A stretch of DNA of 64,000 nucleotides, taken from IMG/VR virus record IMGVR_UViG_3300027896_000013. The stretch is one strand, 5' to 3'. Both the position numbers and the translations under genes were made by a program. The stretch comes from a virus. Each line of letters starts with the position of its first letter. Position 1 is the first letter of the stretch. Of this stretch, positions 9,451-61,200 are shown one piece after another. The notes beneath the pieces were generated by a model. It worked only from the letters and a program-made list of their open reading frames with translations. It had not been told where the DNA came from and ran no database searches.

Positions 9451-9451
9451 G

Positions 9452-9461: not shown

Positions 9462-9465
9462 TCGG

Positions 9466-10218: not shown

Positions 10219-10851
10219 CATAAATGCCTCTGCATATGGGTGTGCAATCTCACCACCACGTTTAATAGCATAAGCTCTGATATATTCTGAATCTCGCAAA
10301 CGACTGTATTCTCCTGGGTAACACTTCATTGCATCAATCTTTCTCTGAATGTGTGTATCGTCTAGAGGTACATAATAATTTGAAATAAATTGAGACCTAA
10401 CACTACCAACTGTCTGGTCTGTGGAGGATATAATCTCACCGGTTATGAACCTCGGAACCACTAAACCCTTTGAAGGCCTTATAGCGGAACAAACAGCTCT
10501 AAATACTTTTGAATGGTCTTGATGTAGGTCTGTGTCTCCGGATGACCACAGTGTATGGCAGTCGTGTGACTTAATAATAGTTTCAATGTGCTTAATTAGT
10601 ACCCTATCATTCACATCCGGTGATAATTTTAACAAACTTAGAAATGTGTAACCTAATACATCTTTAGCATCCTTAGCATGTACTTGCTGCAGCTCGCTTC
10701 GAGCAGTTTGAGTATCAAACATCACAAATACTTTTACCTTTGCACCTTGGTCGACTAATTTAGATATCACACCACCAAAACCGAGCACCTCATCATCTGC
10801 ATGTGGTACAATGAATAGGTGGGATTGCTTAATGTTTCTCAATATGGTCAT
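10195..10851 (-). CDS. PIG-L/LmbE family N-acetylhexosamine deacetylase
   Basis: PHADDE..G.GG, HQDH, KIDAMKCY, AEAF motifs. Confidence 0.88.
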   Translation of the reverse strand: MTILRNIKQSHLFIVPHADDEVLGFGGVISKLVDQGAKVKVFVMFDTQTARSELQQVHAKDAKDVLGYTFLSLLKLSPDVNDRVLIKHIETIIKSHDCHTLWSSGDTDLHQDHSKVFRAVCSAIRPSKGLVVPRFITGEIISSTDQTVGSVRSQFISNYYVPLDDTHIQRKIDAMKCYPGEYSRLRDSEYIRAYAIKRGGEIAHPYAEAFMLQRTIVS

Positions 10852-11596: not shown

Positions 11597-12243
11597 GCAC
11601 CTGTAGGTCTCGGTAAGAGTACCGGTGGCCATATAGTAACTAGGGTACTGTATGTATCAGCAGTATCTATTTGTTTAAGCGCTTCTTCTACACCGGTAAT
11701 AGTTGCAGCTATAATAGCCTTTATTTCTTCAACACCGTTAATATTTTGAGCTTCTTCGAATTCTACTAAATCTTTCTGCAGAGTCTCTAATACACATTTC
11801 TTTTTCTCGTTAATCAGTTTTTTCCAGCCGTCTTTCGCAACAGTTAAAAAAGCTGAATCTTGATTTATAATAGACTGTATATCAAAATATTGAAATAATT
11901 TACACTTCTTTAAGATAGGAGCATACTGATGTACATCTTGTATTACTAGAACTTTAAGATGAGGTTGCTTACTAAAAATATCACTACAGTCTTTGATTAA
12001 ACTCTGTATAATATCAAGCTCACCTGCGAAGTCATCGTGAGATTCTGATACAAAAGCGACCGTATTATCCGTAATATTAAGAGATATCTCGCAGTTATTA
12101 ATTACATCTAAAAATTTACCAGTATTTGTGTTTAAGCTTTTTCCGAATATAGTCTGTCTTTCTTTCGTCTTTTCGTTTATATATTCAAATTTAACAACCT
12201 TACCAGATGTAAGGACTGCAACTAACAGTGTTGATATTGACAT
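11593..12243 (-). CDS. Hypothetical protein, possible tail-fibre assembly chaperone
   Basis: Helical C-terminus ending IDTADT..LVTIWPPVL resembles fibre-assembly proteins; lies downstream of fibre genes. Confidence 0.4.
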   Translation of the reverse strand: MSISTLLVAVLTSGKVVKFEYINEKTKERQTIFGKSLNTNTGKFLDVINNCEISLNITDNTVAFVSESHDDFAGELDIIQSLIKDCSDIFSKQPHLKVLVIQDVHQYAPILKKCKLFQYFDIQSIINQDSAFLTVAKDGWKKLINEKKKCVLETLQKDLVEFEEAQNINGVEEIKAIIAATITGVEEALKQIDTADTYSTLVTIWPPVLLPRPTGA

Positions 12244-17489: not shown

Positions 17490-17954
17490 ATGAAAGTCAT
17501 TACTCTTACACAGGAACAAATCGACCAAGCTCGTTCACTTGCTACTAAGATACAAGATTCAAAACCATATACTCGCAGCTGGGGTGCTAAAAACATCGCA
17601 GTTGGTCTACTCGGCGAGATGGCTTATGCTCAGATGACTAATACTGAGATTTGTACTGAGGTGTGGAACGATAAATGCGATGGTGGTATTGACTTCAAAG
17701 ATGGAGCAGATGTAAAGACTATCACTTGGTTAGGCGCAAATCCTGAACTCAAAGTAGGCAGACTCCCTAGCGATAAAACAAAGAAAACTAAATTCGTAAT
17801 GGCTATATGTGATTACGAAAATGACCCGAAGAACGTCAGACTTATTGGTGAAATCTCCGTAGCAAGCTTCAAGCAAAAAGCTCAATTGCGTACATATGGT
17901 ACAAAGAGCTGGTATGCCGTTACACCGGAAGACCTCGATGTAATCTACACTTAA
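17490..17954 (+). CDS. Hypothetical protein, possible PD-(D/E)XK nuclease fold
   Basis: G.LGE.A..., DGGIDF, DVKT motifs. Confidence 0.45.
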   Translation: MKVITLTQEQIDQARSLATKIQDSKPYTRSWGAKNIAVGLLGEMAYAQMTNTEICTEVWNDKCDGGIDFKDGADVKTITWLGANPELKVGRLPSDKTKKTKFVMAICDYENDPKNVRLIGEISVASFKQKAQLRTYGTKSWYAVTPEDLDVIYT

Positions 17955-20467
17955 GCTGGTCCATTAGAACCGTTATTAATCGGATCTGCTGGTATACGCT
18001 CTAACTCATTAACAGCTTTAGCTCTATCACGCATCTCATCATTTGATGTAGTTAGCGTTAATGGTATATTCTTAAATGTGTGTGCATGTGGTGCTGACAC
18101 TATACAGTCTGGATCAGCTCCTGTACCATATACCTTGATAGGCATAAGCTCTTGTACAAAGCCTCCAATACCCATAGCTGTACCCTGAATACATGGTATA
18201 CCGCTACCGTATACAGGGTATAATCCAGCTGGTACGCAACCACCAGTGTTACTACATCCACCTGGGAGATTTACCCACCCCACGACTTGACTTGGTTGAG
18301 TTAACCCAATCACACTAGGTGCAACTGGTGCACCTAGTGCATTCTCTGTGTTGTATAATGGAACGCCGTACCCTATAACTGCTCCTCTACCCGTAAAGTC
18401 CTTTGCGGGTGTTGAATATACAACTGTTTTATCTGTTACCTGTATCTCTGCAGGAGCTGTAATGTGATTAACTGATAATTCACCTTCAACATGGCATCCA
18501 CCACCTATAACAACATTCTTATTAACACCGAGAGAGCTATCTATTAGAACTTGTTTTTTGTGACGCTGTCTGATGCTTATAACATCTGCTATAAGACTGA
18601 GTCTATGTCCGCCATCAATATTAACTTCATTTTCACTACCAATATTGACCTGTAACCCAGCTATATTAGTTATTGTACCTGATATTACAGCAGGTCCATG
18701 AGATTTGAATGACATTCCACCAGACCCAACTTGAACATTAAACCGGTTACAAACGTTCAAATTATAAGTTCCACCTGGTAAATCGTCAACGTGTGCATAT
18801 TCTATCAGAGGTGTTGCTACCTTATTCTCATATACACCTTGAGTACCCACTAGTATTTCAGCGTTATACATCTTACCTACAGGGTCGACACGAACTGAAC
18901 CGAAATCATTCATTACCATGCCGATAGTTTCAAACTTATGCTTAGTAATGTCAATTATCTGTGACCCGCCTAATCCCATTTGTTTTTCGACGTTAGATAG
19001 TTCGATTATTTTACTGTTTAAGAGCTCTTTAATATTCCTCTTTAACGGCTCTGCTTGCCATCTACCATCCATTGTACTTGTAGATATACCTGAACCACCA
19101 CAGCTTGGACACACATCACCGAAGATTTTACCCTTGCTACCAAAAGTACCATATGTAGCTGTGCTCTGTATCAGCGGCAGGGAGATGTTATTAAAGAGGA
19201 ATGTACCATCACATTCGGATGTTGTGAATGCTACACCGACAGTTCCCATATTATTGTTGAGCTTCCAATAACCTGATACGTTATTTGTACAAACCGGACA
19301 AGGTGCAAATGTACCATTTCGCTTTTGTAACGGGGATGTAGCTTTAAACGAACCCACCGTATTTGCTTGTGCTCGTTGAATGTCAAATAACTGCTTTGAC
19401 TCTGAAATCTCAGTATATATCCCCTTCCACTTTTTATACGGTTCTATATTCAGGTCACCTATCTTAACGTATCGGTTACCTCTTACAATATCATCGAAGT
19501 CATGCTGAACAAATTCATTCTTACTACCTCGGGTTGTTAGGAACTGATCACCTAAAACTAATTTCTGATCATTATTCTGCGCAAACTCGATATTTACCAG
19601 GTTTGTAAATTCTTTAAATGAACCAGAGAAGTGTGTGAATTTAAGAGACTCTCTATTATCAGTGTTTACTATTTGTATAGTTCCACCCTTTTGATTAATC
19701 ACATACTTGTTACGATAAGTCTCTGTGCTAAGATTGGCTGCATTAGCCGCTGATAGTGGCCTATTTTCAAACTCTCCAGGGTAGTCTATACCCTTATTAT
19801 CATTTGCATCGTATATACCCTTCCAGTCCTCAGCACCAAAAGATGTTGCAAAGTATACCGGCTTCATTGGGTCACCATTTTGAAAGAATACCCATACATG
19901 AGAACCTACATTTGGTATTGTGAATGCGCCGTGAGCCTGATTACTATACGTTTCAGGTATGTAGTTATAGCTATATTTGTTGACTGTATTTACACCGCTG
20001 AGAGCTGATGTAAAGGCATCGTTTACACGGTAGTAATCTATATCAAACCTGTTACCATACTTCTCACCAATTGAGTCAACATTTTGAGAGTATTTGGTAA
20101 TTTTAGATATGTCTATATCAGTCGACGACAGGTTTGTTACTAGTGTTCCGATCTTGTTAGAATCGCTCGTAGTACCTATTGCTTTTGAAGCATTGTATCT
20201 ACCAGAGCTGTTTTCACCTACTAAGGGAGAGGCACACTCAGCCCATGGTAATATGTTCTGTAAATCACCAACTATGCTAGAGAGATCGCTTTTAAGATTG
20301 ATACCTACAAACTTAAATCTCTTGTCTTTTTTTACCTCTGTCCACTTTTTGTAGACTGTTACGTTAATATGAGGAACAAAGATTTTCACACGGCCACGAC
20401 GCTCTGGGTCGTCTGACTGAACTACAATACCTAGGTAGTTACCTAGATATGATGGGTAATTATTCAT
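17951..20467 (-). CDS. gp5: gp5-like baseplate hub/spike protein
   Basis: YLGIVVQSDDPERRGRVKIFVP and IPNVGSHVWVFFQNGDPMKPVYF (gp5/VgrG OB fold), beta-helix-like middle, C-terminal HAH; no lysozyme motif seen. Confidence 0.8.
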   Translation of the reverse strand: MNNYPSYLGNYLGIVVQSDDPERRGRVKIFVPHINVTVYKKWTEVKKDKRFKFVGINLKSDLSSIVGDLQNILPWAECASPLVGENSSGRYNASKAIGTTSDSNKIGTLVTNLSSTDIDISKITKYSQNVDSIGEKYGNRFDIDYYRVNDAFTSALSGVNTVNKYSYNYIPETYSNQAHGAFTIPNVGSHVWVFFQNGDPMKPVYFATSFGAEDWKGIYDANDNKGIDYPGEFENRPLSAANAANLSTETYRNKYVINQKGGTIQIVNTDNRESLKFTHFSGSFKEFTNLVNIEFAQNNDQKLVLGDQFLTTRGSKNEFVQHDFDDIVRGNRYVKIGDLNIEPYKKWKGIYTEISESKQLFDIQRAQANTVGSFKATSPLQKRNGTFAPCPVCTNNVSGYWKLNNNMGTVGVAFTTSECDGTFLFNNISLPLIQSTATYGTFGSKGKIFGDVCPSCGGSGISTSTMDGRWQAEPLKRNIKELLNSKIIELSNVEKQMGLGGSQIIDITKHKFETIGMVMNDFGSVRVDPVGKMYNAEILVGTQGVYENKVATPLIEYAHVDDLPGGTYNLNVCNRFNVQVGSGGMSFKSHGPAVISGTITNIAGLQVNIGSENEVNIDGGHRLSLIADVISIRQRHKKQVLIDSSLGVNKNVVIGGGCHVEGELSVNHITAPAEIQVTDKTVVYSTPAKDFTGRGAVIGYGVPLYNTENALGAPVAPSVIGLTQPSQVVGWVNLPGGCSNTGGCVPAGLYPVYGSGIPCIQGTAMGIGGFVQELMPIKVYGTGADPDCIVSAPHAHTFKNIPLTLTTSNDEMRDRAKAVNELERIPADPINNGSNGPA

Positions 20468-20495: not shown

Positions 20496-20523
20496 TTGAA
20501 GTATCAACTTCTGCTACTATTAT
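20496..20523 (+). promoter_or_regulatory. Sigma70-like promoter TTGAAG-N16-TATTAT of the deazaguanine operon
   Basis: 6 nt before ATG 20530. Confidence 0.7.
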
Positions 20524-20529: not shown

Positions 20530-21348
20530 ATGAGAATTAAAGTATCCCACGAAAGTCCAATTAGTCTCCTTGAAAGATCACGTCTGTATAACGATTATGA
20601 TTACTGTCTAGTCCACTTGATGGAACAGCATGACTCGTATAGAGAGTATTTTCTAAACGCACGTAATGTTTATGATCGCGAAGTATTTCTCGATACCTCA
20701 GTGTTCGAGCTAGGTACAGCATTTGATGCGTCGAAATACATCGACTGGGCTGAAAAGATTCGGCCTAATCTGATGATTATACCGGATGTTCTCGAAAATG
20801 CTCAAGCTACTATGGATAACTGGGTTGACTTTGTCGATAAGTTCGGCGACAGGCTTGATAAGATGGACGCGCAGTGGATTGGTGTTGTTCAAGGTAAAAC
20901 ACTTGATGATATTATTCGCTGCTATAATTTCATGTCTAATAATGCTGATGTTATTGCAATCAGTTTTGATATGTCTTATTTCAAGGAAACCGGTAGAGGT
21001 CTAACTGATTATGAGCGTATGTGTAGAGGTCGTCAACAGCTTATTAACGCATTGATTGATAACGACATATGGGATTGGAGTAAACCTCACCATCTCCTTG
21101 GTAATGCACTTCCTCAAGAGATGAGCTTTTACGTAAACAACAACGTTTACAATATTCGCTCTGTAGATACATCAAACCCGATCGTACACGGTCTCCACAA
21201 TGTCAGGTACAACAGTACGTTTGGTCTACGCGATAAAATTAAAACCAAGCTCGCTGATTTGATCACTGCGAAAGTTTCAGATGATCAATGGGATTGCATT
21301 GCTTATAACGTTGATATGTACCGTGAAATCTTAGACGGTAATATGTAA
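20530..21348 (+). CDS. Divergent TGT/DpdA-like (DpdA3-type) 7-deazaguanine transglycosylase
   Basis: TIM-barrel TGT-like motifs LDTSVFE, IPDV, GVVQG, HHLLG, SVDTS; first gene of an operon ending in queF. Confidence 0.65.
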   Translation: MRIKVSHESPISLLERSRLYNDYDYCLVHLMEQHDSYREYFLNARNVYDREVFLDTSVFELGTAFDASKYIDWAEKIRPNLMIIPDVLENAQATMDNWVDFVDKFGDRLDKMDAQWIGVVQGKTLDDIIRCYNFMSNNADVIAISFDMSYFKETGRGLTDYERMCRGRQQLINALIDNDIWDWSKPHHLLGNALPQEMSFYVNNNVYNIRSVDTSNPIVHGLHNVRYNSTFGLRDKIKTKLADLITAKVSDDQWDCIAYNVDMYREILDGNM

Positions 21349-21349
21349 T

Positions 21350-21910
21350 ATGAGACCTTGGATTACATTCTATTCAAATACCGGTAGTGAGATTTGTAAT
21401 ATTTCACGACGCCGTGGATGTTATCCAAGTGCTATTATAGGTCACTATAACTCTCAATTATCAAACAGCTTTATAAATGAGCTGATATCGCAACAGCCGG
21501 TTGTTAGTGAGAACACTACAATATACACCATACCTAACAAGCCGACTGTTGAGGATTACGAACGCATTCTCTCAAAATATGAAAACCCTTTGGTAACTCT
21601 TCATGGGTTTATGCGTATTGTACCGCCAGAGATCTGCAGTAAATACGAGATATATAACGGTCACCCTGGACTAATTACAAAATATCCTATACTCAAGGGT
21701 AAAGACCCTCAACTAAAAGCTTTTACTTACGGTCACACTGAAGCTGGTACAGTTGTTCATAGAGTAACTGCAGGTGTAGATGAAGGACCTGTAGTAATGT
21801 GGAATAAATGTTCAATTGCAGATTGCAAATCACCTAAAGATGTAATAAATCTTCTAAAGGGCCAATCTCTTGAATGCTGGATGGAATTTTTCGATGAATA
21901 CAACACCTGA
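21350..21910 (+). CDS. PurN-like formyltransferase (candidate preQ1 formyltransferase, DpdN-like)
   Basis: LHGFMRIVP, YNGHPGL, GTVVHRVTAGVDEGP. Confidence 0.8.
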   Translation: MRPWITFYSNTGSEICNISRRRGCYPSAIIGHYNSQLSNSFINELISQQPVVSENTTIYTIPNKPTVEDYERILSKYENPLVTLHGFMRIVPPEICSKYEIYNGHPGLITKYPILKGKDPQLKAFTYGHTEAGTVVHRVTAGVDEGPVVMWNKCSIADCKSPKDVINLLKGQSLECWMEFFDEYNT

Positions 21911-22247
21911 AGACTTAATAAAAAAGGTAGAGCAAGACTACCCGGAAACTTGCGCTGAATATAAACGAATTCAACATGAGATGTATACTTTGTTTTGTAA
22001 GAAGCAAAGTGATTACGGACCTAATAATATATCTCTAGGCTCAGATCTCAAAACTGAACCGGATATTCGTGCTGCACTTAGCGGTGTTATCTTTAGGTGT
22101 AACGATAAGGTTCAACGCCTTCTTAACCTTGTTGTCAAGAAAGGTACAATCGCTACATCAAATGAACCTATTGACGATGCCTTTGCAGATCTTGGTAACT
22201 ATGCTATCATCATGAGTATTGTTAAACGCGGTAAATGGTGTAAATAA
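21894..22247 (+). CDS. DUF1599-like nucleotide-modification-associated all-alpha protein
   Basis: KKQSDYG, R.NDKVQRL.NL, EPIDDAFADLGNYAII. Confidence 0.7.
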   Translation: MNTTPEDLIKKVEQDYPETCAEYKRIQHEMYTLFCKKQSDYGPNNISLGSDLKTEPDIRAALSGVIFRCNDKVQRLLNLVVKKGTIATSNEPIDDAFADLGNYAIIMSIVKRGKWCK

Positions 22248-22252
22248 AACAT

Positions 22253-22810
22253 ATGTTAATTGCATTCACAGGAGCTCAATCGACAGGAAAAACAACCTTA
22301 CTAGAAGCTTGTAAAAGGCTTGATGAGTTTAAAGGTTATACATTTGTAGATGAAGTAACCCGCCGCATTAAACGAACACACGGTGTTGCAATTAACAACG
22401 ATGCAGACAACTACGATCAAACACAAAAACTTATTATCGACGACCACATTAAAAACAGCCATCTAAAAAATGCTGTTCTTGATAGATGCATTGTTGATGG
22501 TTATGTATATACACAATACTTTTATGAAAAGGGTAAGGTTTCAGAGTATGTATCCGATCTAGCTCACGGTGCACTTATTGGTATTATCGATCGATATGAT
22601 ATTATATTCTATACTGAACCTGATATTCCGCTTGTTGATGATAAAGAGAGAAGCATGGATGTTAAGTTTCGTGATGATATTATCAAACTCTTTAACATTC
22701 GTATCAGCGCAATAGAAAAACTGGAACCAAATAAAGTCGTACGCTTAAGAGGTTCTGTTGAAGACCGCCTCAATACGATTAAAAAAGCAGTTGCAAATCA
22801 CCAAAAATAA
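22253..22810 (+). CDS. P-loop nucleotide kinase (AAA_28/NadR-like)
   Basis: GAQSTGKTT Walker A, LDRCIVDGYVY, YDIIFY. Confidence 0.75.
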   Translation: MLIAFTGAQSTGKTTLLEACKRLDEFKGYTFVDEVTRRIKRTHGVAINNDADNYDQTQKLIIDDHIKNSHLKNAVLDRCIVDGYVYTQYFYEKGKVSEYVSDLAHGALIGIIDRYDIIFYTEPDIPLVDDKERSMDVKFRDDIIKLFNIRISAIEKLEPNKVVRLRGSVEDRLNTIKKAVANHQK

Positions 22811-22818
22811 TCTACAAT
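22791..22818 (+). promoter_or_regulatory. Sigma70-like promoter TTGCAA-N16-TACAAT
   Basis: 6 nt before queF ATG 22825. Confidence 0.7.
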
Positions 22819-22824
22819 TTAATT

Positions 22825-23706
22825 ATGTCAAATGAAACTTCTGTTAGTAGGCACCTAGGTAAAGCCAGCGTATGTGTTGGTAAATACGATCCAACTCTTC
22901 TTGTTAAAGAAGCGCGCTCACGCAGCAGACAAGAACTTAATATTTCAAGCGATAAACTACCATTTGTTGGTAAAGACGTTTGGAATAATTATGAAGTCTC
23001 TTGTTTGCTTGATAACGGTATGCCTGTAACGGCTATAGCAAAGATTGTTTATGATTGTACGTCTGATGCTATCATTGAATCAAAATCAATGAAGCTTTAT
23101 TGGAACTCATTTAACATGGAAAAGATGGGTAAAACCATTGACGAATGTTACGCTAAGCTTCAAGCGATTACTGAGAAAGACCTGTCAACGTTGATTGGTT
23201 CACCTGTCATGGTCAGCTTGGTAAAGGCTGAAGTAGTATCTAGTCCGATTCCGTTGTTTGGATATGTTAACATCGATGAACTTGCTCAGCTTGTTGCAAC
23301 AGACAAATATAAGCACGATGAATCGTTGTTAACTGGTAAACAGGTAACTGAAGAGCGTGTTCTCAAAGTCCGTACATCGCTTCTACGTGGATTATGTTGC
23401 ATCACATCTCAACCAGATACTGGTGATGTTTATATTCATTACAAGGGTAATTACGATATCGATGTTACATCTATTCTGCAATACATTGTATCTAATCGTG
23501 AAACGAACGAGTTTCATGAACCATCTTGCGAAAAGTTCTTTAATGCTATAAGCAAGAAGTTTGAACCTAAAGAGCTGGCTGTATTCTGTTTATATAATCG
23601 GAGAGGTTCTTTGGATATTAACCCGATGCGTGCAACTTCATACGACTTGATACCCGTTCATATGACTGACCCAGATACACAATGGTCAAAAGCTGCTAGG
23701 CAGTAA
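22825..23706 (+). CDS. queF: NADPH-dependent preQ0 reductase, bimodular QueF
   Basis: IESKSMKLYWNSF QueF motif, C.ITSQPD, EFHE, RRG.LDINP. Confidence 0.9.
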   Translation: MSNETSVSRHLGKASVCVGKYDPTLLVKEARSRSRQELNISSDKLPFVGKDVWNNYEVSCLLDNGMPVTAIAKIVYDCTSDAIIESKSMKLYWNSFNMEKMGKTIDECYAKLQAITEKDLSTLIGSPVMVSLVKAEVVSSPIPLFGYVNIDELAQLVATDKYKHDESLLTGKQVTEERVLKVRTSLLRGLCCITSQPDTGDVYIHYKGNYDIDVTSILQYIVSNRETNEFHEPSCEKFFNAISKKFEPKELAVFCLYNRRGSLDINPMRATSYDLIPVHMTDPDTQWSKAARQ

Positions 23707-23712: not shown

Positions 23713-23745
23713 AAAAACCCCGCTGAGAAATCAGCGGGGTTTTTT
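23713..23745. terminator. Bidirectional intrinsic terminator between convergent genes
   Basis: AAAAACCCCGCTGA-GAAA-TCAGCGGGGTTTTTT perfect inverted repeat with A and T tracts. Confidence 0.92.
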
Positions 23746-28310: not shown

Positions 28311-28766
28311 TTAAACACCTAGTTGATGTTCTGTGAGTATCAAGAATTTATAACGGTTTCTCTCACACCACTGCTTTGCAGCATCCCACTTCGCCATATT
28401 GACAGCGTATGTTTGAGATTCATAGAGAAGAGTACTCTTCTTTTTACGCTTGGTAACTACAGGTGGAACGGTTTGGGAGCTAGGCTTTATCTCAATCAAA
28501 TACTTTACGAGTTTATCACCCTCTTTGATAAGAACAACACCATCAGCGAAATATCTGTGCATGTTACCATCTACTGGACTTCTGTATGGTATAACGATAG
28601 CTTCAGAGGCCCATTCAATGATATTCGGGTTGGTATCACACCATCTATAGAATTTACACTCCCAACCGGAGCGGTATACAGGTGTCTCTTTTCCAATATA
28701 CTTCTTGGGGTTTTGTGGTTTAAAAACACCTTGAATAAATCTACCTTTACCATTTAAAGGTATCAT
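28311..28766 (-). CDS. gp4: Head completion nuclease
   Basis: F.PQNPKKY, YRSGWE, WASE, IPY.SP.DG..HRYF.D, EIKP, N.AKW.AA. Confidence 0.92.
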   Translation of the reverse strand: MIPLNGKGRFIQGVFKPQNPKKYIGKETPVYRSGWECKFYRWCDTNPNIIEWASEAIVIPYRSPVDGNMHRYFADGVVLIKEGDKLVKYLIEIKPSSQTVPPVVTKRKKKSTLLYESQTYAVNMAKWDAAKQWCERNRYKFLILTEHQLGV

Positions 28767-40617: not shown

Positions 40618-41304
40618 ATGGCAACTAACACAGTCAATATTATCAATCTATTGAACCTACCTCAGGCTCAATCGATTGTAGACGGTAATTTCTTTATTGT
40701 TCAGAACGAACTCGGTACTCAGATCATAGACTGGGCAGACGTACCTGTTGTTCGCGTCGATGACGCTGGTGGTAGCACAATAACATCTCTAACAGCAACA
40801 ACTATTGAAACATCTAGTGTAGTTACCACAACTCTATCAGCTCTATCAATTTTTTCAAACGGTAATACAGGTGTAACAGTCGGTGGAGAATATTACAATG
40901 CATTTACAGTTGATAACGGTATTGTAACTAGCGCTGTATATACCATTGGTAGTCCTGAATATGTAGACATTTTAACAACTCAGTTACCTACTCTATGTGC
41001 AGGGTTGTCAGATGTGTTTAAGAGGCTGTATATAGACTATACATCCGCAAATACGAGTCAATCTCAATTGGCTTCCAGTTTTGCAGTAAGCTTCACAAAT
41101 GTGACTCTCCCAACTGAGTTATCATCACCTGGTAATATAATACAACCATCAGATATTAACTGGAATTGTACACCTCCTATTACCAGTAGTCCGATGTTTA
41201 GTAACTTTCAGAATAACGCCGGTTTCTTATCAATGCAAGTTGACCTCAACTATACACCATCTGAGAGTATTGAATTCTACCTAAAGGTTACTAGAGCGTA
41301 TTAA
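40618..41304 (+). CDS. Late structural (fibre/baseplate-like) protein
   Basis: S/T-rich beta protein; N-terminal I..LP.A..I..G.F.IVQ; TAAATA 6 nt upstream. Confidence 0.5.
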   Translation: MATNTVNIINLLNLPQAQSIVDGNFFIVQNELGTQIIDWADVPVVRVDDAGGSTITSLTATTIETSSVVTTTLSALSIFSNGNTGVTVGGEYYNAFTVDNGIVTSAVYTIGSPEYVDILTTQLPTLCAGLSDVFKRLYIDYTSANTSQSQLASSFAVSFTNVTLPTELSSPGNIIQPSDINWNCTPPITSSPMFSNFQNNAGFLSMQVDLNYTPSESIEFYLKVTRAY

Positions 41305-42092
41305 CTCTTGTGACGGCCGCGTTTACTTGGCGGGTCTACATAACCTGGTGAGTTTTTAACTCTTATAATCGTAGACTTTAACTGCTCCGTCTCTTTCTCT
41401 TCCTTTAGAGCGGATGTCTGCTCTCTGAGAAGTTGTTCCATCTCATTAAGATTTTCTGTTGAGAAGAGATTTCCAGTAGTTGTATTGTCAATGCTGTCAC
41501 CATACGAATTAACGTAAAACTTTATTAGTTCAATTCGCTCTAGTGGATTACCAAACACTTCTATGATAGGTGGTGCATCATCTTTGTGAAAGAACGGAGA
41601 CTTACCTTTATTGTGGCCAAACTGAACAGCTTTAAAGATATTATCAATTTCAATTCTGTATTCATTGTCAACCTCTCTACCGTCTCGAGCCTCAACCTTT
41701 ACAGGTGCTACTTTGGTTATTGGTAGAAAGAAAATGATATCAATAGCTTTCATTGCATCTTTAACAAGTGGTATACACTCATCTATAAAAGCTTTATCTA
41801 TATCTGTAGCCTTCTTATCACATGACCACAGTGAATAGATAATATTGTCCAAAGGTGACCGATCAAAGATAATATAATCACTCTTTCTGGTACCTTGTAT
41901 ATCAAGTAACAAGCACTCGAGAATTTTACGCTGACTATCTTTAGTTGTTAACTTATTTGATGGTAGCTGATGCTCCTTCAATAAATTGCGATAAGATTCA
42001 CCAGACCTCTTATACATCGGCCAGTTCTTAATAAAGTCATCAATAAGTGTTGTCTTACCTATACATTGTGTACCTGATATAGCTATTCTCAT
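41301..42092 (-). CDS. Second P-loop nucleotide kinase (AAA_28/dNMP-kinase-like)
   Basis: SGTQCIGKTT, IFDRSPLD..IY; downstream of queE. Confidence 0.75.
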   Translation of the reverse strand: MRIAISGTQCIGKTTLIDDFIKNWPMYKRSGESYRNLLKEHQLPSNKLTTKDSQRKILECLLLDIQGTRKSDYIIFDRSPLDNIIYSLWSCDKKATDIDKAFIDECIPLVKDAMKAIDIIFFLPITKVAPVKVEARDGREVDNEYRIEIDNIFKAVQFGHNKGKSPFFHKDDAPPIIEVFGNPLERIELIKFYVNSYGDSIDNTTTGNLFSTENLNEMEQLLREQTSALKEEKETEQLKSTIIRVKNSPGYVDPPSKRGRHKS

Positions 42093-42096: not shown

Positions 42097-42858
42097 TTAA
42101 ACGGATAGAGCTTTGTTCCAGATCATCAATTGAAGTCTTGGACTGAATTTAACACAGTATTGTTTACAGATGTCTGCAACATATGCTGATTGTTTACTTT
42201 GCTCATCACGGGAACCGCAACATGGCATAAGCCATATAAGAGATTTTGGAAGCTTGACTACCGGAGAATTTACAAAGTTCCGGTCAATCTCCTTAACATC
42301 TTCTTCACTCTTAACTACAAACTTAAAACACGCATTAGCTTGCACTAATACTTTGAGAACTTCTGGTACGTATCGCTTATCTTCAGGGTCACCACCAAGA
42401 GCTAGCTTAGGTGATACTGTAAATGTTACAGAGAATAAGTTTACCCAATCTGAATGCGGCATAACGGTACCGTTAGTCTCAATATCTATCCGAGGTAGGA
42501 ATTCATACTTCTCTGCAAGACGTTTAATAAAGTTAATCAACGGTTCCTGTCTTAAAAGCGGTTCACCACCTGTAATTTTTAGAAGCGCACCGTTTTGAAG
42601 CTTTTCAATATATCCATTCTTCTCTAATAGAGCGAACGTCTCATCAAACGTCAATTTATTCTTCTGTGACCATGATACGAACGAATCACAACCATAAGGT
42701 GAATCTACAGACGCAAAACCTTTACACGTAAGGTTGCAGCCAAAGAGTCGAAGAAATACTGATGGAAAACCTGCAAAGCGTCCTTCACCTTCAACTGTAT
42801 AAAATATTTCTGGTTCAGAGTTAACACCAGCAAAGAGTAGATAATTATCGTCTGTCAT
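42097..42858 (-). CDS. queE: 7-carboxy-7-deazaguanine synthase (radical SAM)
   Basis: EIFYTVEGEG, FLRLFGCNLTC-x11-CDS, ITGGEP, IETNG, VSPKL, PRLQ. Confidence 0.9.
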   Translation of the reverse strand: MTDDNYLLFAGVNSEPEIFYTVEGEGRFAGFPSVFLRLFGCNLTCKGFASVDSPYGCDSFVSWSQKNKLTFDETFALLEKNGYIEKLQNGALLKITGGEPLLRQEPLINFIKRLAEKYEFLPRIDIETNGTVMPHSDWVNLFSVTFTVSPKLALGGDPEDKRYVPEVLKVLVQANACFKFVVKSEEDVKEIDRNFVNSPVVKLPKSLIWLMPCCGSRDEQSKQSAYVADICKQYCVKFSPRLQLMIWNKALSV

Positions 42859-43287: not shown

Positions 43288-43629
43288 TTACTTCTTGTTA
43301 ACACCCCAAGAGGTACCTTGGAATGGATCCGACCAACCTTGAGACTTCTTGCCAGGTCCAACTGTAGCAGCTTGTGTTTCATCTCTACCTGTAGATACCT
43401 TACAACCAACTTCAGCTGGTCTTACACCAGTAGGTGTCTGTTCTTCAGGTTGCTTAACTTCATTTAACAATACCATTTGTTTATCTTCACCAGTAGACTC
43501 TCCAATGGTCCACTTCTGTACATCATTGATAATTTCATCAACACATTGTTTAAGACTACCTGCAATGATTGCTGATAGTAATTTAGCTGCACATTGTTCA
43601 ACCATCTGTTCTCGTGATATTGTACTCAT
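43288..43629 (-). CDS. Hypothetical early protein
   Basis: 113 aa; TTGATT-N16-TAAAAT (43636-43663) 6 nt upstream. Confidence 0.65.
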   Translation of the reverse strand: MSTISREQMVEQCAAKLLSAIIAGSLKQCVDEIINDVQKWTIGESTGEDKQMVLLNEVKQPEEQTPTGVRPAEVGCKVSTGRDETQAATVGPGKKSQGWSDPFQGTSWGVNKK

Positions 43630-45174: not shown

Positions 45175-45834
45175 ATGGAACAATCAAAAAGTATTATAAA
45201 ACTACCATTTGCTAACGGAACACACCCTCGTTCTGTAGAAGAAAAGAATAAAATCATACAAAACGCTGCAGAAGCGTATGCAAAATATCTAGATGCACTA
45301 GGTTTTGATTGGAGAAATGACCCAAATTCATCTAATACACCTACTCGAGTTGCCAAAGCATTTGTTAATGACCTCGCGGCTGGTTGCTACGCCGAACCAC
45401 CAAAAATTACAGCATTTGATAATGTTGACAAGTATGATGGTATCGTATGTCAGAATAATATCAAAGTAGTATCGCTTTGCTCTCATCACCACTTAGCCTT
45501 CACAGGTGTTGCGCATGTTGCGTATATTCCTTCTAAGCACGGTAAAGTTATCGGACTCTCTAAGTTGAATCGAATTGTAGAGTATTTTGCTCGTCGACCA
45601 CAGGTTCAAGAGAATCTTACAATGCAGATCTCGAAATATATTGATGAGGTCTGTGAAGGAAACAATGGTACAGCTGTTGTTATCGAAGCAGATCACACAT
45701 GCTGCTCACATCGTGGTATTGGTCATAACTCTACAATGAGAACAGCTAGAATGACTGGAGCGTTTCTTGATAATAAGGATCAATCACGTTCGGAATTCTA
45801 CAAGTTTGTAGAGTTTGCTAAGACTAACAAGTAA
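45175..45834 (+). CDS. folE: GTP cyclohydrolase I
   Basis: TPTRVAK, SLCSHH, VIGLSKLNRIV, RPQVQE.LT, H.C...RG. Confidence 0.93.
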   Translation: MEQSKSIIKLPFANGTHPRSVEEKNKIIQNAAEAYAKYLDALGFDWRNDPNSSNTPTRVAKAFVNDLAAGCYAEPPKITAFDNVDKYDGIVCQNNIKVVSLCSHHHLAFTGVAHVAYIPSKHGKVIGLSKLNRIVEYFARRPQVQENLTMQISKYIDEVCEGNNGTAVVIEADHTCCSHRGIGHNSTMRTARMTGAFLDNKDQSRSEFYKFVEFAKTNK

Positions 45835-55447: not shown

Positions 55448-58237
55448 ATGTATAGAAATGCAGTTTATCTTCCGAAGAATAAGATAATTCGACTGTACTC
55501 ATGGGATATGCATGGTAAGCGAATATCCTATGATACCTCGTTTGAACCTTATATCTATCTTGAAACGTCTTACGAAGGTGATGCAAAGAGCATATTCAAT
55601 ACAGCTCTCAGAAAGAAGACTTTTAGTGCTCAATACGAGAGATACAAATACGTAGCTGATAATGAGAGTCAGCGTATTTTTGAAAACTTACCCGTTACAC
55701 AACAGTTTCTAGTCGATGTCTTTCACGGTAAAAATGAAGCACCCGAATTTTCGCAGTTTCCTCTTAAGTTAATGTTTATCGATATCGAAACAGATACACA
55801 TGACCATAAAGATTCTCAGATGGTGAAGATTCGTAAGATCAATTCCGGGAACGAAAGAGAGATAACTCTTGGAGAAATAAGGCAGAGCAAGGAATTTCAA
55901 AAAGATTATGAAATTTATGATGATGGTAAATGGTTAACATATCATTCTACATGTTATGCTATAAATGTCTCATTTCCTAACACCGAGCAAGCGAATCAGG
56001 AAGTTAATATCATAACAGTATATGATTCATTATCACAAAAATACTACACTTGGAGTACACGCAAATGTTCAAAAGAGATAGAAGATTGTGTATATGTTGC
56101 ATGTAATACAGAGAAACAAATGTTCTTAAAGTTTCTTGAATTCTACGAGAGTGATTACCCTGACATCTTGTCAGGTTGGAATTCAGAAGGCTTTGATATA
56201 CCATACATTATTAACCGGTTAAACGTACTATTCGGTGCAGATTATGCTCAAAGATTATCACCGGTTGGTAGAATGTCTTCACGTACGTTTATGTCTAGAT
56301 TCGGTAAACAGCAAGTACGTTGGTATATTGAAGGTGTTTCTTGTATTGACTATCTTGACATTTATCGGAAGTTTTGTATGTCTCAGCGTGAAAACTATAA
56401 GTTAGGTAACATAGGTGAGACAGAGTTAGGTGAGAGCAAGGTTGACTTTGGTGATCAAACTCTAGCTGCGTTGTCTGACACTGATTGGGATCTATTCGCT
56501 GAGTATAACGTAACCGACGTTAAGCTATTAGCTAAGCTTGAACGCAAGCTGAAATATCTTGAACTTCTACGATCTATCGCATATGCTGGTTGTACTACGT
56601 TTGAAAGCGCTTTAGGTACATTATCGGTTGTTAACGGGTTATGTGCAATAAAAGCTCGTTCTAAGAATCTTAAAATACCTACATTCAACCGCGAAGATGG
56701 AGAGGGTAAGAAGAACGAAGGTGCTTATGTTGGTGAACCACAGAAAGGGTTTCAAGAGCATATCGTATCATTCGACGCAAACAGTCTATATCCAAACGTG
56801 ATGATATCTCTCAATCTATCACCAGAGACGAAGATTGGTAAGATTATAGAGAAGACTGATACACACGTTACTATTGCACACGTAAATGGTCAACGCTTTG
56901 ACATAACTCATCAAGGTTTAAAGGATTTCCTTAAAGCAGAGAAGGTGACGATGTCAATGGCATCTGTTCTCTTCTCACAAAAAGAGAAGGGTATTGTACC
57001 TGATATTGTAGATAGCTATTACAAAAAGCGTGTTGAGATTCAAAAGAAACAAGACAAATTTTCTCGTGTATTATCTAATACCGAGCAGGAGATTAAAAAG
57101 CTAAAGCAAAGTGGTGTTGACGTAGCTGATAAAGAGGCAGAGTGTGTACAACTTAAGAAGGAGATTGAACAATTCAATATTCGTCAGCATACAATCAAAA
57201 TTCTTATTAACAGTATCTACGGATACTTCGGTAATAAACACGCTCCGATTGGTGATGATGATTTAGCACGGTCAGTTACCCTCACAGGTCAAGCAGCTAT
57301 TAAGCAGTCGAATTGCTTAATGCAAGAATACATACAAACTAACGCTAATCTACCTGATGATTACCTGAAGAGTTATGATCCTGTTATATACAATGACACT
57401 GATTCATGTTATATCTCGCTAAAGAAAGTAGCTGAAGCTAAAAAGTTAACGATGATTGGTGCTAACGGTCAAGTTACCCAAGAATATCTAGACGAAGTGA
57501 GTAGAATTGATACACATCTAAACACAGGTATTAAGAAATGGGGAGAAGATGCTTTGAATTCTCATGATTGTAGGTTAGTTTTTAAACGAGAAGTTATTGC
57601 AGATAGTGGTATATTTCTATCTAAGAAGCATTACGTTCTGCATATTTTAAATAATAAAGGTATTCCTTGTGACAAATATAAGTACGTCGGTGTAGAAATG
57701 GTTAAGACAACGATGCCTAAGAATATTAAACCTTACGCGAAGAAAATCGTTGAAACAATGTTGAAAACAAAGGACAAGGTTCAAGTCGATAAAGTGTTTA
57801 ATGAAGCGTATGAAACATTCAAATCATTAAGCATAGAAGATATTGCTCACGTTAGTGGTATTACAAACTATAACAAGTTTGCTGATAAGTGTAATGAGTT
57901 TACTACAGTAAAGGGTATGCCGAAGCACGTCAAAGCTGCATACTTTTATAACTTACTTCTTAAGAGGTTTAGTATTGATAACAAGTATGAATCAATTTCT
58001 TCAGGTGATAAAATTCGATATATCTCAGTGCGCCAACCGAATAAATTTGGGTTGAAAGCAGTAGGATACAAATATTACTACCCGCAAGAGTTTAAGGAGT
58101 TCTTTGAACCAGACTACGAAGAGATGTTTGATAAGCTAATGTTTAGCGTTATAGAGAGGTTCTATCAAGCGGTAAATTGGCAGATCAGAACACCATCTAT
58201 GAATACTCAAACGGATCTATTCGATCTGTTTAGTTAA
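55448..58237 (+). CDS. gp43: Family B DNA polymerase
   Basis: DIET, GWNSEGFDIPY, YN..D, SFDANSLYP, KILINSIYG, YNDTDS. Confidence 0.96.
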   Translation: MYRNAVYLPKNKIIRLYSWDMHGKRISYDTSFEPYIYLETSYEGDAKSIFNTALRKKTFSAQYERYKYVADNESQRIFENLPVTQQFLVDVFHGKNEAPEFSQFPLKLMFIDIETDTHDHKDSQMVKIRKINSGNEREITLGEIRQSKEFQKDYEIYDDGKWLTYHSTCYAINVSFPNTEQANQEVNIITVYDSLSQKYYTWSTRKCSKEIEDCVYVACNTEKQMFLKFLEFYESDYPDILSGWNSEGFDIPYIINRLNVLFGADYAQRLSPVGRMSSRTFMSRFGKQQVRWYIEGVSCIDYLDIYRKFCMSQRENYKLGNIGETELGESKVDFGDQTLAALSDTDWDLFAEYNVTDVKLLAKLERKLKYLELLRSIAYAGCTTFESALGTLSVVNGLCAIKARSKNLKIPTFNREDGEGKKNEGAYVGEPQKGFQEHIVSFDANSLYPNVMISLNLSPETKIGKIIEKTDTHVTIAHVNGQRFDITHQGLKDFLKAEKVTMSMASVLFSQKEKGIVPDIVDSYYKKRVEIQKKQDKFSRVLSNTEQEIKKLKQSGVDVADKEAECVQLKKEIEQFNIRQHTIKILINSIYGYFGNKHAPIGDDDLARSVTLTGQAAIKQSNCLMQEYIQTNANLPDDYLKSYDPVIYNDTDSCYISLKKVAEAKKLTMIGANGQVTQEYLDEVSRIDTHLNTGIKKWGEDALNSHDCRLVFKREVIADSGIFLSKKHYVLHILNNKGIPCDKYKYVGVEMVKTTMPKNIKPYAKKIVETMLKTKDKVQVDKVFNEAYETFKSLSIEDIAHVSGITNYNKFADKCNEFTTVKGMPKHVKAAYFYNLLLKRFSIDNKYESISSGDKIRYISVRQPNKFGLKAVGYKYYYPQEFKEFFEPDYEEMFDKLMFSVIERFYQAVNWQIRTPSMNTQTDLFDLFS

Positions 58238-60492: not shown

Positions 60493-61200
60493 ATGAGTAA
60501 ATGTGTTATTCCTTTTTCAGGTGGGATGGATTCTACCACGATACTGTATCATGCCATAAAAGAGCATGATACAGTATACGCTGTTTCTATTGCGTACGGT
60601 CAGCGACATCTACAACGCGAGATTACAGCTGCTAATAATATACTGAACGACCTTAATAAGGTTTGTAATTCAATCAGTTATAAAGTTCTTGATTTGTCAT
60701 TCTTTCGAGACGTAGCTAGTATATCATCTCTTACAAACAATAGCATTAATGTAGCTAAAGCGAAAGATGTTATGGGAGACCCGCAAACGGTTAACTATGT
60801 ACCCTTCCGTAATATGATGATGCTGAGTATCTGCTCAGCGTATGCTGAAACAGTTGGCGCAGAAGTTGTATATCACGGTGCAGCTCAAGCAGATAGCGTT
60901 GCTGGATTCTGGGATGGTAGCAAAGAGTTTATTGAAGCTATTAACAATGTAAACATGCTCAATAGACGACACAAGATTAGAATTGAAGCACCACTACTTG
61001 ATAAGAGTAAGGCTGATATCATTAAATGGGGAATGTCTATGGGTGTAGACTATTCTAAGACATGGACTTGTTACGAAGGAAAAGAGCAAGCTTGTGGAGT
61101 TTGTACAGCTTGCTCTTTGAGAATCGGTGGGTTTATGGCAGCCGGTATAAAGGACCCTGTCGAATATTCAGTTAAAATTCCTTGGCCTAACCAGAAGTAA
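60493..61200 (+). CDS. queC: 7-cyano-7-deazaguanine synthase
   Basis: SGGMDS, YGQRH, YVPFRN, TWTCY, CGVCTAC..R. Confidence 0.94.
   Translation: MSKCVIPFSGGMDSTTILYHAIKEHDTVYAVSIAYGQRHLQREITAANNILNDLNKVCNSISYKVLDLSFFRDVASISSLTNNSINVAKAKDVMGDPQTVNYVPFRNMMMLSICSAYAETVGAEVVYHGAAQADSVAGFWDGSKEFIEAINNVNMLNRRHKIRIEAPLLDKSKADIIKWGMSMGVDYSKTWTCYEGKEQACGVCTACSLRIGGFMAAGIKDPVEYSVKIPWPNQK

What the first reader, a model, noticed from the sequence alone, without database searches (positions are those of the whole stretch)
20530..23706. Five-gene operon suggesting pre-replicative replacement of G by a formylated preQ1 nucleotide
Seen: one operon of TGT/DpdA-like, PurN-like formyltransferase, DUF1599-like, P-loop kinase and QueF, with folE, queE (plus a second kinase) and queC elsewhere in the window. 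Established: FolE-QueD-QueE-QueC make preQ0, QueF reduces it to preQ1, DpdA-family proteins route deazaguanines into phage DNA, and formyl-preQ1 has been reported in phage DNA with a predicted formyltransferase. Inference: the kinase and the all-alpha (MazG-like) protein imply a nucleotide-level route (make modified dNMP, phosphorylate it, deplete dGTP, incorporate with gp43), analogous to dZ phages. This would assign roles to two uncharacterised partners. queD is not in this window.
Basis: partly seen in the sequence, partly recalled or inferred. Interest (0 to 1): 0.75.

Follow-up and report, generated by a model that had tools for sequence, protein, structure and literature searches.

The report
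Phage formyl-preQ1 guanine-replacement operon with kinase
An uncultured T4-like phage carries the known gene set that replaces guanine in phage DNA with a formylated 7-deazaguanine, and the nucleotide kinases and dNTP-cleaving enzymes that accompany the base-swapping enzyme in many unrelated phages suggest, without proving, that the swap is made on free nucleotides before DNA is copied, not on finished DNA as published.

Summary
Window 20530-23706 is one tight five-gene unit, with a promoter-like site and a hairpin terminator. It encodes a DpdA3-type TGT-fold enzyme, the DpdN formyltransferase, a DUF1599-like four-helix protein, an AAA_28 kinase and QueF. FolE, QueE with a second AAA_28 kinase, and QueC lie elsewhere in the window. 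QueD is missing, even from the slot where relatives have it.

The operon is a 40-45% identical homologue of the cluster in Flavobacterium phage immuto_2-6A, whose DNA has all G replaced by formyl-preQ1 (Hutinet 2023). It is therefore a new member of a known kind.

- A small kinase sits beside DpdA3 in 79 of 79 informative relatives, against 0 of 17 DpdA1 control loci.
- Distant lineages use kinase families that do not match one another here, including a T4 gp1-type dNMP kinase and a fused T7 gp1.7-type domain.
- dNTP hydrolases, GMP reductase and pyrophosphatase occur in the same operons.
- DpdN keeps a PurN-like N-terminal loop.

The DUF1599 gene tracks DpdN, not DpdA3, and its role as a dGTPase is unshown. 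Nothing here is biochemical proof. This scan has already noted the same kind on other DNA (27 notes, at least 24 genomes).

The parts
20496..20523 (+). Promoter-like site (TTGAAG, 16 nt, TATTAT) in the 62-nt divergent spacer upstream of ORF1
   Evidence: a consensus match only; sequence read.
20530..21348 (+). DpdA3-type TGT-fold base-exchange enzyme (272 aa), with no Zn subdomain
   Evidence: 40% identical to immuto DpdA3 and 45% to the CP220 homologue. The model has pLDDT 94, and all top Foldseek hits are Z. mobilis TGT (E 7e-11, TMq 0.70). Invariant D55, D86, Q121-G122, G191, E197 and D213. The family has 1840 clusters.
21350..21910 (+). DpdN, a PurN-like formyltransferase (186 aa)
   Evidence: Pfam Formyl_trans_N E 2.7e-14. 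44% identical to immuto DpdN. Invariant N103, H105 and D144, plus an N-terminal S9..G12-S loop that aligns to the PurN S-G-x-G-S-N loop.
21894..22247 (+). DUF1599-like four-helix protein (117 aa from ATG 21894; the listed ORF starts at TTG 21870). Possibly an all-alpha nucleotide pyrophosphohydrolase.
   Evidence: Pfam DUF1599 E 2e-3, below the cut-off, in 8 of 23 family members. phrog_1485 E 1.7e-12. 28 of 30 nearest Atlas clusters are DUF1599. The model is a 4-helix protein with pLDDT 87. The fold search was inconclusive. It occupies the same slot as PF18909 MazZ-like genes in 8 relatives.
22253..22810 (+). AAA_28 (NadR-kinase-like) small P-loop kinase (185 aa), the constant neighbour of DpdA3
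   Evidence: Pfam AAA_28 at 64 bits. phrog_2107 'thymidylate kinase'. 34% identical to immuto gp68. Present in 79 of 79 informative loci.
22825..23706 (+). QueF, the two-domain preQ0 reductase (293 aa) that makes the preQ1 base
   Evidence: Pfam QueF_N and QueF. TIGR03138 scores 242 bits, below its 293 cut-off. 41% identical to immuto QueF. Natural DpdA3-QueF fusions exist, P0121 and P0122.
23713..23744 (.). Bidirectional hairpin terminator (14-bp stem, 7 GC pairs) right after the QueF stop
41301..42092 (-). Second AAA_28 kinase (263 aa), next to QueE
   Evidence: Pfam AAA_28 E 1.7e-12. It lies next to or near QueE in three relatives. CP220 also has a second paralogue.
42097..42858 (-). QueE (7-carboxy-7-deazaguanine synthase)
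   Evidence: tblastn with immuto QueE, E 7e-14. Pfam Fer4_12. 50-55% identical to QueE of relatives.
43288..43629 (-). Remnant that matches only the C-terminal tail of relatives' QueD; the catalytic PTPS part is absent
45175..45834 (+). FolE (GTP cyclohydrolase I)
   Evidence: Pfam E 7e-47. 59% identical to immuto FolE.
60493..61200 (+). QueC (preQ0 synthase)
   Evidence: Pfam QueC E 6e-57.
55448..58237 (+). gp43-type family B DNA polymerase, the enzyme that would have to accept the modified dNTP (inferred role)
   Evidence: Pfam DNA_pol_B and exonuclease domain. Its role in the pathway is inference only.

Best explanation
The operon is the DpdA3-type formyl-preQ1 (fdPreQ1) guanine-replacement module of a T4-like phage, and it most likely works on free deoxynucleotides before replication.

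Proposed route:
1. FolE, QueE and QueC, with QueD supplied by the host or encoded elsewhere, make preQ0. QueF reduces it to the preQ1 base. This step follows established pathway knowledge.
2. DpdA3, a minimal TGT-fold base-exchange enzyme, swaps the guanine of a guanine deoxynucleotide for preQ1. dGMP is the most likely substrate; dG or dGTP are not excluded. (Inferred.)
3. DpdN, a PurN-like enzyme that keeps a PurN-type N-terminal loop, formylates the aminomethyl group of the monophosphate. (Inferred.)
4. The adjacent AAA_28 kinase, possibly with the second kinase beside QueE, phosphorylates the product. Cellular NDP kinase finishes the triphosphate, and the phage gp43 polymerase incorporates it. 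(Inferred.)
5. The DUF1599-like protein, which travels only with DpdN, would be a nucleotide pyrophosphohydrolase that returns dGTP or unformylated dPreQ1-TP to the monophosphate level, much as T4 gp56 does for dCTP. (Weakest step.)
For: Identity of the module:
- 40-44% identity and the same gene order as immuto DpdA3, DpdN, kinase and QueF. Immuto DNA has all G replaced by fdPreQ1 (PMC10516641).
- ORF1 has a TGT fold.
- DpdN keeps the PurN N/H/D catalytic residues.

Nucleotide-level route:
1. In 83 related loci the kinase follows DpdA3 in all 79 with enough downstream DNA. 64 of 65 have a small P-loop ORF within 3.2 kb, against 0 of 17 DpdA1 (9g-type) control loci.
2. Divergent lineages place other kinases beside DpdA3-like genes. 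No shared family was found among them in Pfam or Walker-A checks:
   - AAA_28 in immuto and CP220.
   - An HD + AAA_33 fusion upstream in CP220.
   - AAA_18/AAA_33 in phiST and MA9V-3.
   - A 'GCDKTGKS' P-loop ORF in BSTP12 and Youna2.
   - A T4 gp1-type dNMP kinase (PF21448) in Aeromonas phage Ahp1.
   - A C-terminal DUF3310 fused to DpdA3 in Rhizobium phage RHph_I1_18. That domain is the one implicated in the T7 gp1.7 nucleotide kinase (PMC9339283).
3. dNTP- or NMP-acting genes share these operons:
   - PF18909 dATP/dGTP diphosphohydrolase-like, 8 loci.
   - GMP reductase, 20 loci.
   - Inorganic pyrophosphatase, 1 locus.
   - MazG in phiST and PRA-PH in immuto.
   - HD in CP220.
   - DCD/dUTPase-like in Ahp1 and RHph.
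4. The sister genus Fletchervirus (NCTC12673) has neither DpdA3 nor the AAA_28 kinases.
5. The N-terminal region of DpdN aligns only with PurN chains, and S9..G12-S matches the S-G-x-G-S-N loop. From memory, that loop binds the GAR 5'-phosphate.
6. DpdA3 has 272 aa against about 386 for TGT, with no Cys/His cluster for the Zn subdomain.
7. DpdA3 phages show 100% replacement, and ADG nucleoside was reported in CP220-infected cytoplasm (as cited in PMC10516641).
Against: - No biochemistry was done here.
- Every characterised TGT-superfamily enzyme acts on a polynucleotide. Hutinet et al. [quoted passage not shown]
- Bacterial DpdA needs an ATPase partner, DpdB (PMC10164549), so a P-loop neighbour could be a helper ATPase and not a kinase.
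- The 79 loci are one T4-like clade with shared synteny, so they are not independent. The independent support is about seven lineages.
- The DpdA1 control set is small and narrow.
- The DUF1599-like gene is absent from DpdN-less operons. Its link to MazG-type enzymes is weak: hhalign probability 1.4% and inconclusive fold searches.
- The kinase substrate cannot be read from its sequence.
Confidence: 0.6

Rival explanations
1. This is the published model. DpdA3 is a very efficient DNA transglycosylase that swaps G for preQ1 in replicated phage DNA, and DpdN then formylates dPreQ1 in DNA. The adjacent P-loop protein is either a DpdB-like helper ATPase or a general nucleotide-metabolism gene. The NTP hydrolases are ordinary phage housekeeping.
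For: - ORF1 has the TGT/DpdA fold.
- All characterised family members act on polynucleotides.
- PMC10516641 proposes this model.
- Bacterial DpdA requires an ATPase (PMC10164549).
- MazG, dUTPase and kinases are common in large phages.
Against: - The kinase neighbours come from at least five groups with no shared Pfam family here. They include a T4 gp1-type dNMP kinase and a fused T7 gp1.7-type domain. This fits a catalytic small-molecule step better than a specific protein partner.
- None of them is ParB/DpdB-like.
- 0 of 17 DpdA1 loci have such a neighbour.
- MazZ-like, GMP reductase and pyrophosphatase genes lie inside the operon.
- DpdA3 lacks the Zn subdomain.
- DpdA3 did not work in the authors' E. 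coli DNA-modification assay.
- Complete replacement without sequence preference is hard to reach by base exchange on duplex DNA.
Confidence: 0.28
2. This is a ribonucleotide-level variant. The deazaguanine is put on ribose-5-phosphate, either by DpdA3 acting on GMP or GTP or by a phosphoribosyltransferase. It is then phosphorylated by the kinase, reduced by the phage class II ribonucleotide reductase and incorporated.
For: - A class II RNR lies 3 kb upstream (15314-17446).
- GMP reductase, which acts on a ribonucleotide, sits in 20 related operons.
- Immuto and 17 relatives carry a small Pribosyltran gene near the cluster.
- AAA_28 is the NadR ribosylnicotinamide kinase family.
Against: - The window has no phosphoribosyltransferase homologue.
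- RNR genes are common in T4-like phages.
- The kinases beside DpdA3 in Ahp1 and RHph are deoxynucleotide-kinase types.
- A ribonucleotide pool of preQ1 would also enter RNA.
Confidence: 0.1
3. The module modifies tRNA (queuosine-type) and not DNA.
For: TGT fold. QueF and preQ1 are the bacterial tRNA-queuosine intermediates.
Against: - The closest characterised homologues are in phages whose DNA is fully substituted.
- ORF1 lacks the Zn subdomain of tRNA TGTs.
- DpdN has no place in queuosine synthesis.
Confidence: 0.03

Closest known systems
[quoted passage not shown]
   Same: The gene order is DpdA3, DpdN, AAA_28 kinase, QueF, at 40%, 44%, 34% and 41% identity. FolE, QueE and QueC are also encoded.
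   Different: - The window has a DUF1599-like gene between DpdN and the kinase. Immuto instead has a PRA-PH/MazG-like gene two genes upstream of DpdA3.
- The window lacks QueD and the small phosphoribosyltransferase.
- The window uses a family B (gp43) polymerase, immuto a family A polymerase.
- The paper never discusses the kinase and proposes a post-replicative route.
dADG system of Campylobacter Firehammervirus phages (CP220)
   Same: The closest DpdA3 (45% identity), directly followed by an AAA_28 kinase. A second AAA_28 paralogue lies elsewhere. The cluster sits among T4-like structural genes.
   Different: CP220 has an HD + AAA_33 fusion upstream and no QueF or DpdN. Its end product is dADG, not fdPreQ1.
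T4 hydroxymethyl-dC pathway (gp56 dCTPase, gp42 dCMP hydroxymethylase, gp1 dNMP kinase) and the dZ pathway (MazZ, PurZ, DatZ)
   Same: The logic proposed here is the same: hydrolyse the canonical dNTP to the dNMP, modify the monophosphate, re-phosphorylate it with a phage kinase and polymerise it. Relatives carry PF18909 MazZ-like genes, and Ahp1 carries a gp1-type kinase.
   Different: The modifying enzyme would be a TGT-fold base exchanger. That chemistry is not known at the nucleotide level. This is a resemblance in how the system would work, not homology of the core enzyme.
Bacterial DpdA/DpdB and phage DpdA1/DpdA2 DNA transglycosylases
   Same: The same TGT superfamily, and a deazaguanine base as substrate.
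   Different: Those systems give partial, site-biased modification (0.1-30%). DpdA needs the ParB-like ATPase DpdB. Phage 9g-type loci have no adjacent kinase.

Membership tests
DpdA3 subfamily of TGT/DpdA (Hutinet 2023) | Sequence homology to the DpdA3 proteins of immuto, CP220 and phiST | tested here: met
   40% identity (E 6e-63) to immuto, 45% to CP220 and 26% to phiST. The proteins align with invariant D55, D86, Q121-G122 and D213.
DpdA3 subfamily of TGT/DpdA (Hutinet 2023) | TGT-type TIM-barrel fold | tested here: met
   The model has pLDDT 94. The top 50 Foldseek hits are all Z. mobilis TGT (E 7e-11 to 7e-9, TMq about 0.7). Sequence profiles alone do not reach TGT.
DpdA3 subfamily of TGT/DpdA (Hutinet 2023) | Co-encoded with 7-deazaguanine synthesis genes (FolE, QueD, QueE, QueC) | tested here: met
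   FolE, QueE, QueC and QueF are present. The exception is QueD, which was not found in the window or in 10 kb beyond its right end.
DpdA3 subfamily of TGT/DpdA (Hutinet 2023) | Complete replacement of dG in virion DNA | not testable with these tools
   This needs LC-MS of virion DNA, and the phage is uncultured (a metagenome contig).
DpdN (preQ1/dPreQ1 formyltransferase) | Homology to immuto DpdN, with the PurN catalytic Asn/His/Asp | tested here: met
   44% identity. N103, H105 and D144 are invariant in 24 family members and align to the PurN NxH...D residues.
DpdN (preQ1/dPreQ1 formyltransferase) | Co-encoded with DpdA and the FolE-to-QueF pathway | tested here: met
   Same operon. 65 of 83 related loci carry it between DpdA3 and the kinase.
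QueF (two-domain, E. coli type) | QueF_N plus QueF domains | tested here: met
   Pfam E 1e-31 and 5e-16, both above their cut-offs. The NCBIfam equivalog TIGR03138 scores 242 bits, below its 293 cut-off.
AAA_28 (NadR ribosylnicotinamide-kinase-like P-loop kinases) | Pfam PF13521 above the gathering score, with an N-terminal Walker A motif | tested here: met
   64.2 bits against a cut-off of 27, covering the full profile. A GAQSTGKT motif is visible in the alignment. The substrate is unknown.
DUF1599 / Nmad1 | Pfam PF07659 above the gathering score | tested here: inconclusive
   18.8 bits against a cut-off of 25. Only 8 of 23 family members match, at E 0.002 or weaker. The Atlas feature search places it among DUF1599 clusters (28 of 30 hits, score 0.97).
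All-alpha NTP pyrophosphohydrolases (MazG/MazZ-like) | Four-helix fold with acidic metal-binding residues, and similarity to solved members | tested here: inconclusive
   - The model is a 4-helix protein.
- Conserved D40, D71, E91, D95 and D99.
- The only full-length structural match is AF_0060, 2p06, at Z 7.0, tied with unrelated helical proteins. iMazG matches are weak.
- hhalign against the PF18909-like genes of relatives gives probability 1.4%.
- The gene occupies the same slot as those genes.
Pre-replicative base-replacement systems (T4 hm-dC, dZ) | Modified dNTP made in the pool and incorporated by the polymerase; canonical dNTP removed | not testable with these tools
   Only gene-neighbourhood evidence is available.

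The most novel reading that the evidence does not exclude
DpdA3 would be the first TGT-superfamily enzyme that exchanges the base on a free deoxynucleotide, turning dGMP into dPreQ1-MP. The kinase, DpdN and an NTP pyrophosphohydrolase would then form a T4-like dNTP pipeline around it. In that case all phages with 100% 7-deazaguanine DNA (dADG, dDG, dPreQ1, fdPreQ1) would make it pre-replicatively, contrary to the published model.
Probability: 0.5. Interest if true: 0.8.

Novelty: new member of a known kind. Interest (0 to 1): 0.6.

Why it matters
Complete replacement of a canonical base is rare. It is understood mechanistically for hm-dC, dU/hm-dU and dZ, but not for 7-deazaguanines. DpdA3 has resisted assay, and the literature assumes base exchange on finished DNA.

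If the swap is made on nucleotides, four things follow:
- DpdA3 defines a new reaction class for the TGT fold.
- The 'thymidylate kinase' and DUF1599/MazZ-like genes beside it gain roles.
- The enzymes become tools for making 7-substituted 7-deaza-dGTPs.
- The family is large: 1840 protein clusters, and more than 500 IMG/VR loci, the closest 80 of which are T4-like. Wholesale G replacement would then be common in uncultured environmental phages.

The window itself adds one more member, with a lost QueD.

Tried and rejected
- Isoelectric point as a sign of DNA binding: the DpdA3 median pI is 5.6, but 9g DpdA1 is 5.64, so it does not discriminate.
- Sequence or profile search of DpdA3 against the PDB: no TGT hit. 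Only the fold search finds it.
- Residue-by-residue mapping of D55, D86, Q121, G191, E197 and D213 onto TGT D102, D156, Q203, G230, E235 and D280: this rests on my memory of TGT motifs and on strand-end positions in the model. It was not aligned by a tool.
- ORF3 fold searches with Foldseek and VIA-wide: inconclusive.
- hhalign of the DUF1599-like family against the PF18909-like family: probability 1.4%.
- Kinase against the PDB: only a weak thymidylate kinase match at E 0.04.
- Whole genome of the window: not held. One 10-kb walk beyond the right end found no QueD. About 38 kb upstream and 45 kb downstream of the contig remain unseen.
- The 296-aa ORF in the QueD slot as a disguised QueD: no similarity to QueD, no Pfam hit and no PHROG hit.
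- Crippen et al. 2019 (J Virol) could not be read. Its result is quoted only as cited in PMC10516641.
- Literature searches for a published pre-replicative DpdA3 route found none in the held library.
- A paper confirming which PurN residues bind the GAR phosphate was not found.


Full report
**What is there**

The window is part of a 157-kb metagenomic contig of a T4-like myophage (ENA ERZ27247850 k141_1822129). It carries the gp23 capsid gene, portal, gp13, UvsY, UvsX, gp46/47-like genes, a gp43-type family B polymerase and a class II RNR.

Between a gp5-like baseplate gene (17951-20467, minus strand) and the capsid module lie five plus-strand ORFs, packed with gaps of 1, -17, 5 and 14 nt. 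A promoter-like site at 20496-20523 precedes them, and a 14-bp-stem bidirectional hairpin at 23713-23744 follows them.

- ORF1 (20530-21348) has no Pfam, NCBIfam or PDB sequence match. It is 40% identical to the annotated DpdA of Flavobacterium phage immuto_2-6A and 45% to a 'hypothetical protein' of Campylobacter phage CP220. Its AlphaFold model (pLDDT 94) hits only tRNA-guanine transglycosylase structures (Foldseek E 7e-11, TMq 0.70).
- ORF2 is a PurN-like formyltransferase, 44% identical to immuto DpdN.
- ORF3 most likely starts at ATG 21894. It is a four-helix protein with a sub-threshold DUF1599 match, and the Atlas places it among DUF1599 clusters.
- ORF4 is an AAA_28 P-loop kinase.
- ORF5 is a two-domain QueF.

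**What it is**

Immuto_2-6A is the phage in which Hutinet et al. [quoted passage not shown] They named DpdA3 and DpdN from it. Immuto has the same gene order: DpdA3, a small ORF, DpdN, 'thymidylate kinase', QueF. The window is therefore a new, uncultured member of a known system.

The family is large. It has 1840 protein clusters at 90% identity, none annotated, and more than 524 IMG/VR loci.

I took 83 related loci and mapped their neighbours.
- The kinase is present in all 79 loci that extend far enough downstream.
- QueF is present in 78 and DpdN in 65.
- The DUF1599-like gene is present in 52, and only where DpdN is present.
- About 18 loci have the minimal form DpdA3, kinase, QueF.

These loci share gp5-operon-gp23 synteny, so they count as one lineage. 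The independent evidence comes from distant DpdA3-like genes.

| Lineage | Neighbours of DpdA3-like gene |
|---|---|
| CP220 | HD + AAA_33 fusion, DpdA3, AAA_28 kinase |
| phiST and Chryseobacterium phage MA9V-3 | AAA_18/AAA_33 kinase directly upstream; phiST also has MazG |
| Bacillus phage BSTP12 and Weizmannia phage Youna2 | P-loop ORF ('GCDKTGKS') directly upstream |
| Aeromonas phage Ahp1 (hhalign 98.9%) | T4 gp1-type dNMP kinase (PF21448) downstream, then a DCD/dUTPase-like gene |
| Rhizobium phage RHph_I1_18 (hhalign 98.6%) | DpdA3 fused to DUF3310, the domain implicated in the T7 gp1.7 nucleotide kinase (PMC9339283), then a DCD/dUTPase-like gene |

Two controls point the same way.
- 0 of 17 DpdA1 (phage 9g-type) loci have a small P-loop ORF within 3.2 kb, against 64 of 65 DpdA3 loci.
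- The sister genus of CP220, Fletchervirus (NCTC12673), whose DNA reportedly carries dI and not a deazaguanine (my recollection of Crippen 2019, not read here), lacks both DpdA3 and the AAA_28 kinases.

**Other nucleotide enzymes in the operon**

- In 17 relatives a GMP reductase (NF003966, 319 bits, just under its cut-off) sits between DpdN and the DUF1599-like gene. In 3 more it lies about 4 kb upstream.
- In 8 relatives the DUF1599 slot holds a PF18909 'dATP/dGTP diphosphohydrolase' (MazZ-like) gene.
- One relative has an inorganic pyrophosphatase between the kinase and QueF.

**DpdN**

A profile of 24 DpdN sequences hits PurN structures first. Only PurN chains align from profile position 5-9. 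There the invariant S9 and G12 and the conserved S13/E14 line up with the S-G-x-G-S-N loop. Fmt, PurU and sugar formyltransferases align only from position 40 onwards. From memory, that loop holds the 5'-phosphate of GAR. If so, DpdN expects a 5'-phosphorylated substrate with a primary aminomethyl group, which describes dPreQ1-MP.

**DpdA3**

DpdA3 has 272 aa and no Cys/His cluster, so it lacks the Zn subdomain of TGT. Natural DpdA3-QueF fusions exist (P0121, P0122). They argue that DpdA3 takes the free preQ1 base made by QueF.

**Most likely mechanism**

The scheme resembles the T4 pathway. A guanine deoxynucleotide, most simply dGMP, is converted by DpdA3 base exchange to dPreQ1-MP, formylated by DpdN, phosphorylated by the AAA_28 kinase or kinases and NDP kinase, and incorporated by gp43. 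The NTP pyrophosphohydrolase-like gene travels with DpdN. It may therefore recycle dGTP or unformylated dPreQ1-TP to the monophosphate. GMP reductase in relatives would drain the guanine pool.

Shown here: gene identities, folds, conserved residues and neighbourhood statistics. Inferred: every substrate and the timing. I put the nucleotide-level route at about 0.6.

**Rivals**

- The published post-replicative model stays alive at about 0.28. All known TGT-family enzymes work on polymers, and bacterial DpdA needs an ATPase, DpdB (PMC10164549), so a P-loop neighbour could be a helper. Three things argue against it: the neighbours come from several kinase families with no shared Pfam match, one of which is fused to DpdA3; none is ParB-like; and DpdA3 failed in the authors' E. 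coli DNA assay.
- A ribonucleotide-level variant through RNR is possible (about 0.1).
- A tRNA role is unlikely.

- DUF1599 is not a partner of DpdA3. It is an optional gene tied to DpdN, and its MazG-like nature and any dGTPase activity are unshown.
- QueD is not merely outside the window. Five related genomes all have a 220-243-aa QueD between QueE and FolE. The window's slot holds only a 113-aa ORF that matches the QueD tail, plus a 296-aa ORFan.

**Novelty**

The locus is a new member of a known kind. The mechanistic reading contradicts the literature and I found no paper that proposes it. This scan, however, has already reached it on other DNA: 27 notes in at least 24 genomes. My results were obtained before I read those notes, and they agree.

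Noticed in passing
window 42859-44730 (ORFs 43288-43629 minus strand and 43840-44730 minus strand): The syntenic QueD slot between QueE and FolE has lost the catalytic PTPS domain. Only a 113-aa ORF that matches the C-terminal tail of relatives' 220-243-aa QueD remains, next to a 296-aa ORFan with no Pfam or PHROG hit. The phage may rely on host QueD, carry queD elsewhere on the contig, or use an unrecognised replacement.
   Followed up: partly
L034:10807-12390: A Trp-halogenase-like flavin-dependent halogenase (Pfam E 2e-75) sits between DpdA3 and DpdN in one related phage. This hints at a halogenated 7-deazaguanine.
   Followed up: no
L006:11379-12350 and 19 other loci: A GMP reductase (GuaC type, NF003966 at 319 bits) lies inside the deazaguanine operon in 17 relatives, and about 4 kb upstream in 3 more. 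It is absent from the window.
   Followed up: partly
P0121, P0122: Natural fusion proteins of DpdA3 (N-terminal) and QueF (C-terminal), 531 and 568 aa.
   Followed up: partly
L119:3962-5230 (Rhizobium phage RHph_I1_18) and L120:4001-5984 (Aeromonas phage Ahp1): In RHph_I1_18 a DpdA3-like domain is fused to DUF3310 (the T7 gp1.7 kinase domain). In Ahp1 a DpdA3-like gene is followed by a T4 gp1-type dNMP kinase. Both are followed by a DCD/dUTPase-like gene and lie near FolE. Neither phage is among those I saw discussed in the 2023 paper (its supplementary list of DpdA3 homologues was not read).
   Followed up: partly
window 6728-11632: A cluster of two radical-SAM genes (7338-8318, and 8299-9450 with a SPASM domain), a DXD glycosyltransferase, a PIG-L deacetylase and a galactosyltransferase lies next to tail-fibre genes. 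A homologue of the SPASM enzyme sits inside the deazaguanine operon of L037.
   Followed up: no
window 28311-28766 (minus strand): A Tn7 TnsA-like N-terminal endonuclease domain ORF lies among the head genes. It is probably a homing endonuclease.
   Followed up: no
L050:11536-12066 and homologues in L073, L077, L081, L083: A conserved 176-180-aa ORF of unknown function lies between DpdN and the MazZ-like gene in the MazZ-type operons. It has no Pfam, NCBIfam or PHROG hit.
   Followed up: no
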